A model generated the notes under the pieces. That model was not told where the DNA came from, made no database searches, and saw nothing but the letters and a program-made list of their open reading frames with translations. From NCBI GenBank assembly GCA_036259475.1, contig DATABS010000094.1:11801-75800 (forward strand): DNA of 64,000 nt, in the 5' to 3' direction. Positions 55,554-59,382 of the stretch are shown one piece after another; within the stretch, counting starts at the first letter, position 1, and each line of letters begins with the position of its first letter. The stretch comes from Acidimicrobiia bacterium. GTDB taxonomy: Bacteria > Actinomycetota > Acidimicrobiia > Spongiisociales > ZC4RG35. The position numbers were made by a program, and so were the translations under genes.

Positions 55554-56656
55554 CGATCGACCCCGGATTCACGACTCAAGAAATGAGGCGTGTCTTCTCC
55601 GCCGAGTCGCGGATCTCACTGATGTGCCGGTTCGAGTCGGCGCTAGCCGAGGCGCAGGCGGAACTGGGCATCGTCCCGGCGCAAGCAGCCCGGGCGATCG
55701 CCAATGCCTGCTCCAACCCGCGGGGAGATGCCGACGCCATTCTGAGGCGGGGCTGGGAGACGGGGACACCGGTCCTGGCGTTGCTCGACGACCTTCGAAC
55801 TGGACTCTCCGAGGAGGACGGCAGATGGCTCCACCACGGCGCCACCACCCAGGACGTGGCGGACACTGCGCTGATGCTCCAGTGCCAAGCCGCCCTGCAG
55901 AGTCTCGATGGTGACCTCACCGCCGCCGCCGACCGCCTGGCGGAGCTGGCCGACGTCTACCGGGAAACCGCCGCCCTGGCCCGCACGTTCTATCAGCCGG
56001 CGGTGACGACGAGCTTCGGTAGCCGCGTGGCCGGATGGCTCCATCCGCTGGTACTGGTCCGTCGCGACTCTCGTCGACTGTCAGAGCGGCTCCCCATCCA
56101 GCTAGGAGGTCCGGTGGGTGACCTGGTCTCTTACGGCGACGGCGCCTTCACCCTCGGCGACCGGGTTGCCGCCCGTTTGGGGCTGGTTGGGGCGGTGCCC
56201 TGGCACACCGATCGATGGCCGGTCCAGGAAGTGGCTGGGTTGCTGGCGCGGGCCGCATCCGCCTGCTCCAAGATCGCCACCGACGTGGCGGTCCTGGCTG
56301 CCGACGGTGAGGTACGGGTTCGATCGGGAAGGTCGTCCTCCATGTCGGGCAAGGAGAACCCGGTCGACGCGATGCGGTCGGAGGCGGCGGCGCAGGTGTG
56401 CAAGGTGGTCGTGTCGGGGCTCGTGGCTCCACCGTCCCACGTACTCGAGCGGGGGATGGGGCCCTGGCATGCCGAGTGGGCCCTGATTCCCCTCGCCTTC
56501 CAAACCGCCGGGGCATCGGCCGCAGCGATCGCCCTTTGCCTCGATTCCCTCGAGGTCGGTGTGGAAGCCATGAAAGCGGCGGCCGGCGGTGAGGCGCCCG
56601 CCGACGCCGGACTGATCGAGCGGGTCGTTACCGCCCACCGGGAACTCGAAGGATGA
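55550..56656 (+). CDS. pcaB: 3-carboxy-cis,cis-muconate cycloisomerase (fumarate-lyase superfamily)
   Basis: lyase class II signature region GRSSSMSGKENPVDAMRSE; ATGA overlap with pcaJ. Confidence 0.75.
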   Translation: MTIDPGFTTQEMRRVFSAESRISLMCRFESALAEAQAELGIVPAQAARAIANACSNPRGDADAILRRGWETGTPVLALLDDLRTGLSEEDGRWLHHGATTQDVADTALMLQCQAALQSLDGDLTAAADRLAELADVYRETAALARTFYQPAVTTSFGSRVAGWLHPLVLVRRDSRRLSERLPIQLGGPVGDLVSYGDGAFTLGDRVAARLGLVGAVPWHTDRWPVQEVAGLLARAASACSKIATDVAVLAADGEVRVRSGRSSSMSGKENPVDAMRSEAAAQVCKVVVSGLVAPPSHVLERGMGPWHAEWALIPLAFQTAGASAAAIALCLDSLEVGVEAMKAAAGGEAPADAGLIERVVTAHRELEG

Positions 56657-57438
56657 AGCTGACCTCCACGGCAGACGGGACGCGCCTGGCCTGGGTGGAG
56701 GGGGGCAGGGGCCCCGCACTGGTGCTCCTCCACTCGCTGGGAACGGCCTCGGCGATGTGGTCGGCCCAGGCCACAGCCCTCGAAGACCGGTACCGGGTAC
56801 TCCGGGTAGATCTTCGCGGTCACGGCGAGTCGGACGCCCCGCCCGGACCCTACGCCATCGAGATGTTGGGGCGCGATCTGCTGGAGGTGGCCCAAGCTGC
56901 CGGGCTCGACCGGTTCCATCTCGGCGGGATCTCGCTCGGCGGACAGATCGCCCAGTGGGTCGCCATCCACCATGCCGAGCACCTGAAATCGGTGATTCTC
57001 TCGAACACCGCCGCCCGCATCGGCAGCGAACAGGGATGGACCGACCGGATCGCCGCCGTGCGCCAGCGCGGCCTCTCCGGGATCTCCGGGATGGTCGTCA
57101 GCGGCTGGTTCAGTGAAGGTTTTACCGACGACGAAGCCCGATCCCGGGCGACAGCGATGTTCGAGCAAACCGACCCCGAGGGCTACATCGGCTGCTGTCA
57201 CGCGCTGGCCACCGCCGATCTACGGGACGCCGTGGAGGAGATCTCCATGCCGACGTTGATCATCGCCGGAGAGGTCGATAGATCGACTCCACTCTCCGAC
57301 GCCGAGTGGCTCCATCAACGCATCCCCGGCAGTCGCCTCGAGGTGTTGGAGGGCCGCGCCCACCTCCCCAATCTCGAGGAGCCGGAGGAATACAGCGGCC
57401 TGCTCACCGATTGGTTGAGTCACGCGTCGTCTCTGTGA
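56653..57438 (+). CDS. pcaD: 3-oxoadipate enol-lactonase (alpha/beta hydrolase)
   Basis: nucleophile elbow GGISLGG; ATGA overlap with pcaB. Confidence 0.8.
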   Translation: MKLTSTADGTRLAWVEGGRGPALVLLHSLGTASAMWSAQATALEDRYRVLRVDLRGHGESDAPPGPYAIEMLGRDLLEVAQAAGLDRFHLGGISLGGQIAQWVAIHHAEHLKSVILSNTAARIGSEQGWTDRIAAVRQRGLSGISGMVVSGWFSEGFTDDEARSRATAMFEQTDPEGYIGCCHALATADLRDAVEEISMPTLIIAGEVDRSTPLSDAEWLHQRIPGSRLEVLEGRAHLPNLEEPEEYSGLLTDWLSHASSL

Positions 57439-57475
57439 GGATCCCTGCACCGAAGCTGTGCGCAGATCCTCACAG
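57433..57475. repeat. hairpin-forming repeat (CTGTGAGGATCCCTGCAC-cgaagct-GTGCGCAGATCCTCACAG) containing the pcaD stop codon; left copy of a pair flanking the DUF559 element
   Basis: 15/18-bp imperfect stem read from sequence; the 18-nt 3' arm recurs at 58232-58249 with 17/18 identity. Confidence 0.5.
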
Positions 57476-57543
57476 AAGTGTTGTGTCCCCCGGGTTTGGC
57501 GGGATGGCCCTCCATGAAGCGGATAGACCTCTAGGTAGGGCGC

Positions 57544-58212
57544 TTGCCCGCCGACCGCTTCCGGCTACTCCTGGACCGCCTCCAAACAGCGATCCTGGAG
57601 ATCACCGTTCCGTACCACCCACGGTCCGGTGCCGAAAGGTGTGATCGTCTACCGAACGAGGCGCGACCTCGTTGGAGCAGACATCAGAGGTATCAGAGCA
57701 ACGAGTGTGGAGCGCACGCTCCTCGATTCTGCCGGACTACTTCCTCGCCTGTGGTGGCCAAGGGGATCGACAGTGCGGTCCGGCGGGGCTTGACGTCTCC
57801 TCGATCTCTGTGGGAGACGATCCAGAACCAGGGTGGCCGCGGGGTCCGCGCCAGCAAGCCGCTGGCGGCCCTGGTGGCAGCGTTGGACGCCTCACGGGCG
57901 ACGGGGAGCCCGGCCGAAACGGAGTTGCTCCATGAGATGAGAAGTCAGAGCCTGCCCGAGCCGGTTCTACAGTTCGAAGTCGTGTTGGAGGACGGGCGCC
58001 GGTACCGGGTCGACTTCGTCTGGCCGCAACTCGGGAAAGGTGTCGAAGTAGACGGTCTGGATGCTCACGCCGGTGCGGAGGCGCTCGAACGAGACCTGCA
58101 ACGTCAGAACGCTGTTATGAACGCCGGGATCCAGTTGCGCCGTTACACCGCTCGGGAAGTGAGACGGGACCCGAAGTCAGTTGTGGCCGAGATCGCCAGG
58201 TTCCTTCTGTGA
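57544..58212 (+). pseudogene. frameshifted DUF559 / REP13E12-like (AbiEi-N plus endonuclease-like C-domain) gene
   Basis: C-terminal YRVDFVWPQLGKGVEVDGLDAHAG...NAGIQLRRYTAREV is the DUF559 core; the expected N-terminal motif TSVERTLLDSAGLLPRLW is encoded in a different frame (about 57700-57770), implying a frameshift. Confidence 0.55.
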
Positions 58213-58249
58213 GCGTCAGCGCACGGAACCGGTGCACAGATCCTCACAG
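58207..58249. repeat. second copy of the hairpin repeat (CTGTGAG...GTGCACAGATCCTCACAG), containing the DUF559 stop codon; possible bidirectional terminator
   Basis: shares CTGTGAG and 17/18 nt of the 3' arm with the 57433-57475 hairpin. Confidence 0.45.
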
Positions 58250-58257
58250 TTGTTTGC

Positions 58258-59382
58258 TCATCCCGGCTCGTAGCCCCACACGTCGGAGGCCACCTCGACG
58301 GTGCGGCCTAGCTTGCGCCACTGGTCGTCGGGTTCGATCGTGTTGCCGTGAGCGGTGGAAGAGAACCCGCATTGGTGGCTGAGGCACAGCTGCTCGAGGG
58401 GCGCATATTGGGCCGCCTCGTCGATGCGCCGCTTCACCTCGTCGGCGTCCTCGACCCGAGCGTGCTTGGAGCTCATCAGACCCAGTACCACCGTTTTTCC
58501 TTCCGGTAGGAAGCGCAGGGGCGCGAAGTCGCCCGACCGCTCGTCGTCGTACTCGAGGAAGAAGCCGTCGACCTCCATCTCGTTGAAAAGGGTCTCGGCG
58601 ACCGGTTCGTAGCCTCCCTGTGACACCCAGGCGCTCTGGAAGTTTCCCCGGCACAGGTGAACGCAGGCCACCATGTCGTCGGGACGGCCTTTGATGGCGT
58701 CGTTGATGAGGCGGCAGTAGAGGCGCGTGAGATCGTCGGGGTCGTCGCCCCGGGCGGCGGTGCGTTCCCGCACTTCGGGGTCACAGAGGTAGGCGAGGTT
58801 GGTGTCGTCCAACTGGACGTACGTGCAACCCCGGGAGGCCAGATCGGCGATCTCCTCCCGATAAGCGGCCGTGAGGTCGTCGAAGAACTGGTCGAGATCG
58901 GGATAGATGTCCTCGCCTATCGCCTTGCGCCCGCCCCGGAAATGGAGCATCGAGGGTGCCGGGATGCATACCTTGGGGGTGCGCGTGACCTGGGAGGCGA
59001 GAAAGTCGAAATCGTCGCCCTGGATGGGATGGGAGTGGCGGATCGGGGCGTCGACCAGCATCGTTGGGGGCTTGAACTCGATCTCGGTGCCGTTGTCGCG
59101 CTTGAACTTCGCCAGGAAGTCTCCCTCGGTCACGGTCACACCGTCGAGCTGTTGGAGAAAGTCGACGTGGAACATGAAGCGTCGGAACTCGCCGTCGGTG
59201 ATGCCCCGAAGCCCGACGTCTTCCTGTCTCTTGACCACCTCTGCGATCGCCTGATCCTCCACGCCGCGCAATTCCTCCGGTTCGATCACACCTGTCTCGT
59301 GTCTCTCCCGGGCGTCGATGACGGAGGGCGGTCGCAGGAAGCTCCCAACATGGTCGGCTCGGAATGGCGGTCGTTCTGTCAC
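58258..59382 (-). CDS. cobalamin-independent methionine synthase (MetE) C-terminal-domain-like methyltransferase
   Basis: about 374 aa single-domain UROD/MetE-like pattern (RADHVGSFLRPP, conserved Zn-site region HLCRGNF). Confidence 0.7.
   Translation of the reverse strand: MTERPPFRADHVGSFLRPPSVIDARERHETGVIEPEELRGVEDQAIAEVVKRQEDVGLRGITDGEFRRFMFHVDFLQQLDGVTVTEGDFLAKFKRDNGTEIEFKPPTMLVDAPIRHSHPIQGDDFDFLASQVTRTPKVCIPAPSMLHFRGGRKAIGEDIYPDLDQFFDDLTAAYREEIADLASRGCTYVQLDDTNLAYLCDPEVRERTAARGDDPDDLTRLYCRLINDAIKGRPDDMVACVHLCRGNFQSAWVSQGGYEPVAETLFNEMEVDGFFLEYDDERSGDFAPLRFLPEGKTVVLGLMSSKHARVEDADEVKRRIDEAAQYAPLEQLCLSHQCGFSSTAHGNTIEPDDQWRKLGRTVEVASDVWGYEPG

What the first reader, a model, noticed from the sequence alone, without database searches (positions are those of the whole stretch)
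57433..58249. Frameshifted DUF559/REP13E12-like element bracketed by near-identical hairpin repeats that each swallow a stop codon
The 222-aa ORF ends in the DUF559 endonuclease-like core, but its canonical N-terminal motif (TSVERTLLDSAGLLP) lies in another frame, so the gene is broken. It is flanked by two 43-nt hairpin-forming sequences (57433-57475 and 58207-58249) sharing CTGTGAG and a 17/18-identical arm GTGC(G/A)CAGATCCTCACAG. The pcaD TGA and the DUF559 TGA both sit inside the CTGTGAG arm. This resembles the mycobacterial REP13E12 repeat family, which serves as phage attachment sites. Here it marks the 3' boundary of the aromatic catabolic operon and may be a recombination hotspot or a terminator-embedded mobile unit.
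Basis: seen in the sequence. Interest (0 to 1): 0.55.

Follow-up and report, generated by a model that had tools for sequence, protein, structure and literature searches.

The report
Decayed hairpin-bounded nuclease gene cassette
This is a dead copy of a small mobile cassette, a DNA-binding nuclease gene carried between two copies of a 43-base palindrome, and it exposes an apparently undescribed palindrome-plus-nuclease system in Acidimicrobiia that resembles the REP/RAYT repeat systems of other bacteria.

Summary
Two 43-nt hairpins (57433-57475, 58207-58249) bracket a broken DUF559 gene, and the stop codons of pcaD and of the DUF559 gene both lie in the CTGTGAG arm.

The damage is worse than one frameshift. 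Against intact 300-aa homologues, the gene has a nonsense codon, a 68-codon in-frame deletion, a +1 insertion and a -1 deletion.

The REP13E12 comparison fails: 13E12-family proteins carry HNH domains. This protein is an AbiEi-type winged-helix module fused to a Vsr/DUF559 nuclease.

In at least 36 other loci, almost all from Acidimicrobiia MAGs, intact homologues sit between two copies of the same 43-nt palindrome family (consensus CCGTTCTGTGA-N-TCACAGAACGG). Stem pairing is kept by compensatory changes.

Related genomes have empty sites without any family hairpin, both at this site and at a second site. The hairpin subtype follows the protein between sites, so hairpins and gene move as one unit.

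The same palindromes also occur alone at gene 3' ends, and near-identical copies lie at unrelated sites.

Best reading: a decayed copy of a REPIN/RAYT-like system built on a different enzyme. How it moves is inferred, not shown.

The parts
56653..57438 (+). pcaD (3-oxoadipate enol-lactonase), the last gene of the pca cluster. Its last five codons and its TGA (57436-57438) come from the inserted block.
   Evidence: TIGR02427 gives 268.5 bits against a cutoff of 255.85. The C-terminus reads ...DWLSHASSL*, against ...RWLD* in the empty-site relative L090.
57425..58270 (.). Block that is absent from relatives (approximate limits). It replaces a 41-nt intergenic hairpin of another kind.
   Evidence: L090 and L091 carry the metE-like gene (91% aa identity) and pcaD convergent and 41 nt apart. 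Model R1 scores that hairpin 4.9 bits, E = 7.7. Homology with the window resumes at about 58271.
57433..57475 (+). Upstream 43-nt palindrome (hairpin 1), a member of the CCGTTCTGTGA...TCACAGAACGG family.
   Evidence: R1 hit 57427-57481, 48.9 bits, E = 2.6e-13 with filters off. MFE -26.8 kcal/mol, z -5.5.
57476..57513 (+). 38-nt leader between hairpin 1 and the ATG. It is a degenerate copy of the conserved leader motif TGTCACA-N5-6-TGGCA, which is probably the promoter or operator region.
   Evidence: Alignment with the leaders of L086, L087, L005 and L001. Spacer length read from the sequences: 38 nt in the window, L086 and L005, 37 nt in L087.
57514..58212 (+). Pseudogene of a 300-aa AbiEi (winged helix) + Vsr/DUF559 nuclease protein.
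   Evidence: The reconstructed product is 77% identical to P0001 and P0002, both 300 aa. DNA alignment with L086 gives 73% identity over 836 columns. It is the only family copy in the window.
57532..57534 (+). Nonsense codon: TAG at codon 7, where the intact homologue has GAG.
57570..57571 (+). Junction of an in-frame 204-nt (68-codon) deletion. It removes residues D19-G86, which include the winged-helix (AbiEi_4) region.
   Evidence: protein comparison; AbiEi_4 lies at residues 13-53 of P0001 and P0002.
57615..57616 (+). +1 insertion (an extra C) that shifts the frame at VPY|THG.
57750..57751 (+). 1-nt deletion that restores the original frame at LPRL|VVAKG.
57754..58212 (+). Residual 152-aa ORF with a GTG start, which public annotation calls 'DUF559 domain-containing protein'. 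The nuclease core is still intact (VEVDGLDAH, RQN).
   Evidence: P0003 is 99% identical and is annotated as MAG TPA Acidimicrobiia bacterium. The Pfam DUF559 match covers residues 118-221 of the 222-aa ORF. Family-invariant residues are listed.
58207..58249 (+). Downstream 43-nt palindrome (hairpin 2). It contains the pseudogene's TGA (58210-58212).
   Evidence: R1 hit 58201-58255, 40.7 bits, E = 1.2e-10. MFE -20.8 kcal/mol, z -2.8.
58258..59382 (-). Convergent metE-like gene (cobalamin-independent methionine synthase family). Its original stop is lost and the ORF is extended by 4 codons into the inserted block.
   Evidence: NF005085 gives 452.7 bits against a cutoff of 313. The C-terminus reads ...VWGYEPG*, against ...VWA* in L090.

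Best explanation
**What it is (shown).** Window 57425-58270 is a decayed copy of a roughly 0.85-1.1-kb single-gene cassette. An intact cassette has three parts:
- a 43-nt palindrome (53 nt with its conserved extension; consensus CCGTTCTGTGA-N-TCACAGAACGG);
- a 37-38-nt leader in the window's subclade, followed by a 300-aa gene for an AbiEi-type winged-helix DNA-binding module fused to a Vsr/DUF559 PD-(D/E)xK nuclease;
- a second copy of the palindrome at or over the stop codon.

The cassette entered the spot between the convergent pcaD and metE-like genes in this lineage. It brought both hairpins with it and replaced the resident intergenic hairpin. The gene was then inactivated by a nonsense codon, a 68-codon deletion and two frameshifts, and the two hairpins drifted to 80% identity.

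**How the family works (inferred).** Three steps are proposed.
1. The AbiEi module of the encoded protein binds the conserved outer half-sites of the palindromes. AbiEi antitoxins bind inverted repeats in their own promoters in this way. At the upstream copy this would give autoregulation.
2. The nuclease domain cuts or nicks at the palindromes.
3. That cutting drives movement, inversion and duplication of hairpin-bounded DNA. This would include solitary palindromes, which spread to gene 3' ends the way REPINs do under RAYT transposases.

The palindromes sit where transcripts end, so insertion between convergent genes is tolerated.
For: **Identity of the window copy.**
- Intact 300-aa homologues exist, and the lesions are mapped against them.
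- The protein matches AbiEi in PADLOC at E = 1e-22 over residues 21-176, and Pfam AbiEi_4 + DUF559 + MTES_1575.
- The AlphaFold model has mean pLDDT 89.9. Foldseek matches AbiEi (6y8q), Rv2827c (1zel) and, more weakly, the I-Bth0305I homing-endonuclease catalytic domain (3r3p) and 3hrl.

**Hairpins go with the gene.**
- In 36 measured loci the gene has one family hairpin upstream and one downstream.
- All R1 hits in 651 kb of those loci abut the gene, with one exception, and the window has only its two.
- 20 of 23 stem pairs show compensatory changes. 82.5% of cells are paired, against 35-48% when the partner column is slid.
- Interior identity averages 0.80 within a locus and 0.39 between loci.

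**The cassette moves.**
- Empty sites without a family hairpin exist for this site (L090, L091).
- They also exist for the SIS/oxidoreductase site (L215-L220, only 16-20 nt between the stop codons), next to occupied L213, L001, L005 and L086.
- The window's hairpin subtype (GAGGATC..GCACCG-loop-CGGTGC..GATCCTC) is the one seen in its closest protein relatives, which sit at that other site.
- One MAG has one site occupied and another empty (L012 and L215).
- Another MAG carries two copies with different hairpin subtypes (L013 and L028).
- The cassette occurs in both orientations between the same neighbours.

**REPIN-like behaviour.**
- An unbiased hairpin-pattern scan of metagenomes hit at least 120 contigs. 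Only 5 of the 51 well-flanked hairpins adjoin a homologue.
- 45% of these hairpins lie between convergent ORF ends, against 4.5% of random positions.
- Hairpins whose interiors are at least 85% identical lie at sites with no flank homology, in 26 of 27 and 21 of 21 pairs for the two largest clusters.
- The AbiEi-DUF559 family is the largest cluster of hairpin-adjacent proteins (6 loci, next 5 and 4), and no transposase- or integrase-like family appears among the eight largest.
- More distant homologues (31-36% identity) carry their own types of palindrome pair.

**Precedents from the literature.**
- AbiEi binds inverted repeats for autoregulation (PMC7319586, PMC3985639).
- REPINs have conserved ends and a variable spacer that still forms a hairpin, and RAYT genes are flanked by them (PMC3337134).
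Against: - No biochemical link between the protein and the palindromes has been shown. Their co-variation could come from simply travelling together.
- A nuclease alone cannot carry out strand transfer, so host repair or recombination would have to complete any movement.
- No solitary family hairpin occurs in the 64-kb window, and only one (in L034) occurs in the roughly 350 kb that flank the GTDB copies. The link between solitary hairpins and nuclease-bearing genomes therefore rests on metagenome contigs of unknown genome membership.
- The cassettes keep the same syntenic site across many species-level MAGs. Flank identity and gene identity are weakly positively correlated. Movement is therefore rare.
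- Near-identical hairpin pairs also flank unrelated genes: pirin, an S8 protease and an MFS transporter. The model does not yet explain this.
- Stem mismatches show no clear strand asymmetry: 91 G-T against 65 A-C, p = 0.045. This does not separate a DNA-level from an RNA-level role.
Confidence: 0.65

Rival explanations
1. This is an insulated defence or toxin-type cassette. The AbiEi-nuclease would be a self-regulated toxin or anti-phage effector, a one-protein relative of AbiE. The palindromes would serve only as its operator (upstream copy) and as transcript-end insulators. The cassette would spread by ordinary horizontal transfer and recombination, and the nuclease would play no part in moving DNA.
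For: - The match to AbiEi is strong in sequence and fold.
- AbiEi proteins autoregulate through inverted repeats.
- The upstream hairpin lies 37-38 nt from the ATG, next to a conserved leader motif.
- The hairpins sit at gene 3' ends.
- The cassettes stay at the same site for long periods.
Against: - There is no AbiEii (DUF1814) partner. The cassette has a single gene.
- It does not explain why near-identical solitary palindromes lie at unrelated sites.
- It does not explain the tandem arrays with a fixed 72-73-nt period.
- It does not explain why the downstream copy stays matched to the upstream one.
- No relative was found in viral contigs or plasmids. This is neutral for a defence role.
Confidence: 0.22
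2. The hairpins are ordinary lineage-specific bidirectional terminators or RNA-stabilising stem-loops. They would have been duplicated locally, and the DUF559 gene would be an ordinary resident gene that happens to be decaying here.
For: - The hairpins lie between convergent ORF ends.
- The stems are kept by compensatory change.
- There is a weak excess of G-T wobble on the sense strand.
Against: - The length is exactly 43 nt and the end motif CGTTCTGTG/CACAGAACG is conserved while the interior varies freely.
- There is no T-tract.
- Empty sites lack any family hairpin.
- The hairpin subtype follows the protein to a new site.
- Nearly every family gene has a hairpin on both sides, although solitary copies are sparse elsewhere.
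Confidence: 0.08
3. This is a homing-type insertion with target duplication. A family palindrome would already have been present at the site, and the nuclease gene would have inserted into it and duplicated it, giving a 43-nt target-site duplication.
For: - The two hairpins of a locus are near-identical, whereas different loci differ.
- Both orientations occur at one site.
- Solitary palindromes are common between convergent genes.
- The nuclease fold is shared with a homing endonuclease.
Against: - Empty alleles at both sites examined carry no family palindrome.
- The window's hairpins are of the same subtype as those of its closest relatives at a different site. A duplicated local target could not give that result.
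Confidence: 0.04
4. This is a REP13E12-like repeat that serves as a phage attachment site. Alternatively, the gene is intact and the frameshift is a sequencing error.
For: Only the general resemblance supports the first idea: a nuclease-type ORF of about 1 kb within a repeat. For the second, the source is a short-read MAG, in which single-base errors are possible.
Against: - 13E12-family proteins carry HNH domains. This protein has AbiEi_4, DUF559 and MTES_1575 and no HNH hit.
- There are no viral relatives and no integrase nearby.
- A nonsense codon plus a 204-nt deletion cannot be explained as homopolymer or indel errors.
Confidence: 0.02

Closest known systems
REP/REPIN-RAYT systems (REPtrons) of Proteobacteria
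   Same: - Short extragenic palindromes have conserved ends, and their variable interior still forms a hairpin.
- The palindromes sit at gene 3' ends.
- One associated protein gene is flanked by the palindromes.
- Each protein subfamily has its own palindrome type.
- Residence is long-term and largely vertical.
(PMC3337134.)
   Different: - The associated protein is not an HUH/Y1 (IS200-like) transposase. It is an AbiEi winged-helix module fused to a Vsr/DUF559 PD-(D/E)xK nuclease.
- The unit is a single 43-53-nt palindrome, not a REP doublet.
- The gene-plus-hairpins unit is itself present or absent between genomes.
- Copy number per genome is unknown and seems low.
IS200/IS605-family insertion sequences
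   Same: - The element is very small, with one gene between two similar subterminal hairpins.
- No long terminal inverted repeats or obvious target duplication were seen at the junctions examined.
   Different: - There is no TnpA (Y1) or TnpB.
- The hairpins are near-perfect palindromes and occur in either relative orientation.
- The mechanism is unknown.
AbiE type IV toxin-antitoxin / abortive infection systems (AbiEi antitoxin)
   Same: The N-terminal 180 or so residues match AbiEi in sequence (E = 1e-22) and fold (6y8q, 1zel). AbiEi binds inverted repeats upstream of its own gene.
   Different: - There is no AbiEii (DUF1814) toxin gene.
- The AbiEi module is fused to a nuclease.
- A second palindrome lies downstream of the gene.
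Vsr-like (EDxHD) homing endonuclease I-Bth0305I and free-standing homing endonuclease genes
   Same: - The C-terminal domain has the same nuclease fold (3r3p, TM-score 0.60-0.70 normalised to the target).
- Vsr, DUF559 and this homing endonuclease are grouped together (PMC3424549).
- The gene is present or absent at fixed sites, and decayed copies exist (window, L001), as in a homing cycle.
   Different: - The gene is not inside an intron or intein.
- The insertion does not split a recognisable target.
- Full palindromes flank the gene on both sides.
Mycobacterial REP13E12 repeats
   Same: Both are roughly kilobase-sized repeated units that contain a nuclease-type ORF.
   Different: - 13E12 proteins carry HNH domains, and the repeat holds a putative prophage attachment site.
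- Here the protein family is different, there is no phage link, and the host class is different.
Integron gene cassettes with attC sites
   Same: Single-gene units end in an imperfect palindrome that has conserved ends and a variable interior. Some non-nuclease genes are also flanked by matching hairpins.
   Different: - No integrase or attI recurs next to the hairpins.
- The palindrome has a fixed length of 43 nt.
- Cassettes are isolated, not in arrays.

Membership tests
Pfam DUF559 (PF04480) / Vsr-like PD-(D/E)xK nuclease | Profile match above the gathering score | tested here: met
   29.2 bits against 20.6 for the window ORF, and 30.7-31.7 bits for P0001 and P0002.
Pfam DUF559 (PF04480) / Vsr-like PD-(D/E)xK nuclease | Vsr-type nuclease fold with conserved acidic and His residues | tested here: met
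   Foldseek matches 3r3p, 3hrl and the PvuRts1I/AbaSI nuclease domains at weak E-values (0.03-0.12) with probability 0.96-1.00. D235, E246, D248, H253 and R265-Q266-N267 are invariant in 46 sequences. The window copy retains VEVDGLDAH and RQN.
AbiE type IV TA system | AbiEi-type antitoxin module (winged helix plus C-terminal domain) | tested here: met
   PADLOC AbiEi at E = 2e-22 over residues 21-176, Pfam AbiEi_4 at or above its cutoff, and Foldseek 6y8q and 1zel. This holds in intact homologues only. The window copy has lost residues 19-86.
AbiE type IV TA system | Adjacent AbiEii (DUF1814 nucleotidyltransferase) toxin gene in a bicistronic operon | tested here: not met
   The cassette has one gene. 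Its neighbours are pcaD and the metE-like gene in the window, and SIS, Mo-oxidoreductase or others elsewhere.
REP13E12 (M. tuberculosis complex) | Encodes a 13E12-family protein with an HNH domain | tested here: not met
   [quoted passage not shown] Pfam finds only DUF559, MTES_1575 and AbiEi_4 here.
REP13E12 (M. tuberculosis complex) | Contains a prophage attachment site, and phage integrates there | tested here: not met
   No relative was found in IMG/VR. No integrase or phage gene is adjacent. Empty and occupied alleles differ only by the cassette.
REP13E12 (M. tuberculosis complex) | Several copies of about 1.4 kb per genome in mycobacteria | not testable with these tools
   The host is an Acidimicrobiia MAG. 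The window has one copy. The whole genome is not available.
REP/REPIN-RAYT system | Extragenic palindromes with conserved ends and a variable interior that forms a hairpin | tested here: met
   Alignment A2 has 66 copies. T8, G9, G11, C45, C47 and A48 are invariant, and 20 of 23 pairs show compensatory changes. 122 of the 124 metagenome 43-mers are distinct.
REP/REPIN-RAYT system | The associated protein gene is flanked by the palindromes, with a specific palindrome type for each protein lineage | tested here: met
   36 loci have flanking pairs. Distant subfamilies have their own palindrome types. Two paralogues in one MAG have different subtypes (L013 and L028).
REP/REPIN-RAYT system | The associated protein is an HUH/Y1 tyrosine transposase related to IS200 | tested here: not met
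   Pfam, PADLOC and fold search give AbiEi plus a Vsr-like nuclease. No Y1 transposase family recurs beside the hairpins.
REP/REPIN-RAYT system | Many dispersed copies within one genome | tested here: inconclusive
   Near-identical hairpins lie at non-homologous sites in metagenome contigs. However, no solitary copy occurs in the 64-kb window, and only one occurs in about 350 kb of MAG flanks. Genome membership of the contigs is unknown.
IS200/IS605 | TnpA (Y1) and/or TnpB between hairpin-bearing ends | tested here: not met
   Hairpin ends are present, but the only ORF is the AbiEi-DUF559 gene.
Intrinsic (Rho-independent) terminator | GC-rich stem-loop followed by a T-tract | tested here: not met
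   No terminator-like site was found in 57300-58400. The hairpins are followed by AACGG, AAGTG or TTGTT.
Rfam RNA families | Match to a curated covariance model | tested here: not met
   The only hit is a chance-level one that does not overlap the hairpins: Cis52, 19.2 bits against a gathering score of 56, E = 0.45.

The most novel reading that the evidence does not exclude
The AbiEi-Vsr/DUF559 protein would be the mobilising enzyme of a REPIN-like population of 43-nt palindromes in Acidimicrobiia and other Actinomycetota.

That would be a second, HUH-independent origin of REP/RAYT-type systems, one in which a winged-helix-guided PD-(D/E)xK nuclease replaces the tyrosine transposase.

It would also give a first function to a 300-aa protein architecture found in more than 4,000 50%-identity clusters.
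Probability: 0.35. Interest if true: 0.85.

Novelty: new variant of a known kind. Interest (0 to 1): 0.68.

Why it matters
AbiEi_4 + DUF559 proteins of about 300 aa form a large family with no known role. The profile finds 4,271 clusters at E <= 1e-30 and 19,631 at E <= 1e-10. None of the 25 papers in the searched library that mention DUF559 has a title or abstract pointing to flanking palindromes, and I opened only one of them, a superfamily survey.

Showing that they travel between matched palindromes, and that the same palindromes spread alone to gene ends, turns 'unknown function' into a testable hypothesis. The hypothesis is that a nuclease recognises and acts on its own flanking hairpins.

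If that is right, REP/RAYT-like repeat systems arose more than once, with unrelated enzymes.

There are practical gains too:
- The covariance model and the hairpin consensus let annotators find these cassettes in MAGs.
- They help to recognise decayed copies, such as the 152-aa 'DUF559 domain-containing protein' annotated here.
- They flag sites of gain, loss and inversion between convergent genes.

Tried and rejected
- **Look-ups of window proteins.** Exact look-ups of pcaD, the metE-like protein and P0003 found nothing on record.
- **Window-specific hairpin pattern.** Scans with CTGTGAG-N7-GCACNGAA-N15-CTCACAG found nothing in genome contigs or metagenome contigs. That interior is specific to the lineage, and the end-motif pattern was the one that worked.
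- **Other collections.** There was no relative in viral contigs, no tblastn hit in plasmids at 1e-10 and no Rfam family.
- **Vertical or horizontal history.** I compared pairwise identity of flank proteins and cassette proteins. Spearman correlations of 0.18-0.55 were inconclusive, and the ORF clusters may include shadow ORFs.
- **DNA or RNA role.** Wobble asymmetry in the stems was 91 against 65, p = 0.045, which is inconclusive.
- **Possible remnant of the old terminator.** Window 57482-57491 (TGTGTCCCCC) resembles an arm of the L090 terminator. I judged this chance: 3 matches were seen against 3.7 expected. The stretch aligns better with the cassette's own leader.
- **Integron-cassette reading.** Set aside, because no integrase recurs beside the hairpins.
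- **Target-duplication reading.** Set aside after the empty sites were found.
- **Simple promoter and terminator scans.** They found nothing. This says little for a high-GC actinobacterium.
Full report
**1.

- The window holds a 44-nt direct repeat, 57432-57475 and 58206-58249, at 80% identity.
- Each copy folds into a long hairpin: -26.8 kcal/mol (z -5.5) and -20.8 kcal/mol (z -2.8).
- CTGTGAG-N20-40-CTCACAG occurs only at these two places in 64 kb, and never in 100 shuffles.
- pcaD (56653-57438; TIGR02427 above its cutoff) ends at a TGA inside the left arm of hairpin 1. The DUF559 ORF ends at a TGA inside the left arm of hairpin 2.
- The 222-aa ORF matches Pfam DUF559 above the gathering score. 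The TSVERTLLDSAGLLP stretch lies in another frame.

**2. The gene is a pseudogene with four lesions**

A search with the frame-merged product found 300-aa homologues. P0001 and P0002 are 77% identical. A 152-aa entry, P0003, is 99% identical and annotated 'DUF559 domain-containing protein [Acidimicrobiia bacterium]'. It is evidently the C-terminal remnant of this same locus.

Aligned with the intact gene in L086, the window copy starts at the native ATG (57514). It then has these lesions:
- a TAG at codon 7 (57532-57534);
- an in-frame 204-nt deletion that removes residues 19-86 (junction 57570/57571);
- an extra C at 57615/57616;
- a missing base at 57750/57751.

A nonsense codon plus a 68-codon deletion cannot be a sequencing artefact. 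The nuclease core (VEVDGLDAH, RQN) is still intact.

**3. What the intact protein is**

- Pfam finds AbiEi_4 at residues 13-53 and DUF559/MTES_1575 at the C-terminus.
- PADLOC AbiEi profiles match residues 21-176 at E = 2e-22.
- An AlphaFold model built on 46 homologues has mean pLDDT 89.9.
- Its N-terminal two-thirds superposes on the AbiEi antitoxin (6y8q) and on Rv2827c (1zel).
- Its last 100 or so residues superpose more weakly (E 0.03-0.12, probability 0.96-1.00) on the I-Bth0305I homing-endonuclease catalytic domain (3r3p), on 3hrl and on the PvuRts1I/AbaSI nuclease domains.
- Vsr, DUF559 and that homing endonuclease are grouped together in the PD-(D/E)xK survey (PMC3424549).
- The architecture is common. 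A profile search finds 4,271 50%-identity clusters at E <= 1e-30.

**4. The hairpins belong to the gene, and this holds across the family**

I fetched 80 loci from species-representative genomes. The closer half, at 41-58% identity, are almost all Acidimicrobiia MAGs. I also fetched Logan contigs for the closest relatives.

- Nearly every copy with sequence on both sides has one 43-nt hairpin 40-140 nt upstream of the protein match, and another at or just after the stop.
- An ungapped alignment of 66 copies gives the consensus nCCGTTCTGTGA...TCACAGAACGGn, with invariant T8, G9, G11, C45, C47 and A48.
- For a 23-bp stem, 82.5% of cells pair, against 35-48% when the partner column is slid. 20 of 23 pairs show compensatory changes.
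- A covariance model, R1, finds only the two copies in the window with filters off. Their E-values are 2.6e-13 and 1.2e-10, and the next best hit has E = 0.62.
- In 651 kb of related loci, every R1 hit abuts the gene. The single exception is a hairpin in L034.
- Interior identity is 0.80 on average within a locus and 0.39 between loci. It is only 0.37-0.48 between loci that share the same neighbours.
- The two copies of a locus can be direct repeats (L025 and L032, 100%) or exact inverted repeats (L028, 100%).
- About half of the more distant homologues (31-36% identity) carry their own palindrome pairs. These come from Thermoleophilia, Solirubrobacterales, other Actinomycetota and one Myxococcaceae. 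Examples are GTTTTGGCG...CGCCAAAAC and GGGTGCAACG...CGTTGCACCC.

**5. The unit is an insertion that brings its own hairpins**

*This site.* Contigs L090 and L091 encode a MetE-like protein 91% identical to the window's. There, the metE-like gene and pcaD are convergent and 41 nt apart. Between them lies an unrelated GC-rich hairpin, which R1 scores at 4.9 bits. Relative to that allele, window positions about 57425-58270 are new. pcaD has gained ...SHASSL*, and the metE-like gene has lost its stop and gained four codons.

*A second site.*
- The window's closest relatives (L086, L087, L005, L001, L213) lie between a SIS-domain gene and a molybdopterin oxidoreductase.
- BLASTP confirms that L086 and L001 have the same neighbours, at 87% and 79% identity, with the cassette in opposite orientations.
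- Six contigs (L215-L220) have this site empty. Their two stop codons are 16-20 nt apart, with no hairpin.
- L213 holds a 1.1-kb insert with three hairpins exactly between the stops.

*What this shows.*
- The window's hairpins have the same interior subtype (GAGGATC..GCACCG-loop-CGGTGC..GATCCTC) as those at this other site. Hairpins therefore travel with the gene and are not duplicated local targets.
- One MAG has one site occupied (L012) and another empty (L215).
- Another MAG has two copies with different subtypes (L013 and L028).
- Both orientations occur between the same neighbours in three synteny classes.

**6. The palindromes also live on their own**

- All 124 hits are real hairpins, with 13-23 of 23 pairs formed. 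Only 5 of the 51 with at least 1.1 kb on both sides adjoin a homologue.
- Of 86 hairpins, 45% lie between convergent ORF ends, against 4.5% of random positions. Another 41% lie at one ORF end.
- 122 of the 124 sequences are distinct, yet a few outer-stem subtypes dominate and overlap those beside the genes.
- Hairpins whose interiors are at least 85% identical lie at sites with no flank homology. This holds for 26 of 27 pairs and 21 of 21 pairs in the two largest clusters. That pattern indicates dispersal, not shared ancestry of a locus.
- The AbiEi-DUF559 family is the largest cluster of hairpin-adjacent proteins (6 loci, against 5 and 4 for the next two). No transposase or integrase family appears among the eight largest.

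**7. Interpretation**

*Shown.* The window feature is a decayed copy of a hairpin-bounded, single-gene cassette that inserted between convergent genes.

*Inferred.* The closest analogue is the REPIN/RAYT relationship. In that system the palindromes have conserved ends and a variable spacer that still forms a hairpin. Each associated gene is flanked by its own palindrome type, and residence is long-term (PMC3337134).

Here the enzyme is different. AbiEi proteins bind inverted repeats upstream of their own genes (PMC7319586, PMC3985639). The upstream palindrome lies 37-38 nt from the ATG, next to a conserved leader motif.

I therefore propose that the AbiEi module recognises the conserved half-sites and that the nuclease acts there. 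That action would cause movement, inversion and duplication.

*Not established.*
- The biochemistry.
- How strand joining would occur.
- Whether solitary palindromes and cassettes share genomes.
- Whether the hairpins act as DNA or as RNA.

**8.

- REP13E12 is a different thing. Its proteins carry HNH domains, and the repeat holds a putative prophage attachment site.
- Here there is no HNH hit and no viral relative.
- No integrase family recurs next to family hairpins, and none is listed among the genes of the related loci looked up.
- The idea of a mobile unit at the operon boundary is right.

**9. Novelty and limits**

- The 25 library papers that mention DUF559 were screened by title and abstract, and none points to flanking palindromes. 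The three other searches found nothing either.
- The library lacks most subscription journals, so earlier work cannot be excluded.
- I rate this a new variant of a known kind.

Noticed in passing
L005 3049/3121; L087 564/636; L015 3815/3887 and 4908/4981; L009 3813/3886; L121 2062/2135/2207; L184 3144/3217/3290; L213 5018/5090: Where hairpins are tandem, the period is always 72-73 nt: a 43-nt hairpin plus a 29-30-nt spacer. The spacer sequence is not conserved between loci. TRF gives period 72 at 98% match in L121 and period 73 in L184. The fixed length suggests a mechanistic ruler.
   Followed up: partly
L132 3901-5050; L191 5462-7112; L121 571-2261; L133 1268-2215; L109 168-3633: Pairs of near-identical family hairpins (interior identity 0.90-1.00) flank genes that are not the nuclease. 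These are a pirin, an S8 protease, an MFS transporter, a secreted protein and a 3.4-kb multi-gene stretch. They may be passenger cassettes or the result of gene conversion.
   Followed up: partly
L049, L055, L056, L060, L064-L069, L071, L073, L075, L078-L080: Distant homologues (31-36% identity) come from Thermoleophilia, Solirubrobacterales, other Actinomycetota and one Myxococcaceae. They are flanked by their own palindrome pairs with different end motifs, such as GTTTTGGCG...CGCCAAAAC and GGGTGCAACG...CGTTGCACCC. The gene-palindrome association therefore reaches well beyond this subfamily.
   Followed up: partly
L001-L004 (P0013), e.g. L001 3836-4790: This is another decayed copy at the SIS/oxidoreductase site. 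Its upstream hairpin has collapsed to TTCTGT|CACAG. A deletion has fused the 3' end of the gene into the right half of the downstream hairpin, and there is a frameshift. The same allele was found in four sequencing runs.
   Followed up: partly
L034 3876-6697: This cassette has an upstream hairpin, and only a right-arm remnant after the gene. A full family hairpin lies 1.7 kb further on, after an adenosine deaminase gene and a GNAT gene and next to rpoC. It is the only family hairpin in the GTDB flanks that does not abut the cassette gene.
   Followed up: no
window 57476-57513; L086 621-658; L005 3164-3201; L087 679-715: A conserved leader motif, TGTCACA-N5-6-TGGCA-N2-AT, lies between the upstream hairpin and the ATG. 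The spacing is 37-38 nt. The motif is degenerate in the window copy (TGTGTCC...TTTGGC). It is probably a promoter or operator.
   Followed up: partly
L012 and L215 (both from MAG CAZTXD01, GCA_964617995.1): The same MAG has a cassette at one site (class A, L012) and an empty SIS/oxidoreductase site (L215). Occupancy therefore varies from site to site within one genome.
   Followed up: yes
window 57420-57438 and 58258-58275: Both flanking genes have altered C-termini compared with the empty-site relative L090. pcaD ends ...WLSHASSL* instead of ...WLD*. The metE-like protein ends ...VWGYEPG* instead of ...VWA*.
   Followed up: yes
window 57222-57308 (- strand): There is a weak Rfam hit to Cis52 sRNA inside pcaD: 19.2 bits against a gathering score of 56, E = 0.45. 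I judge it to be chance.
   Followed up: no
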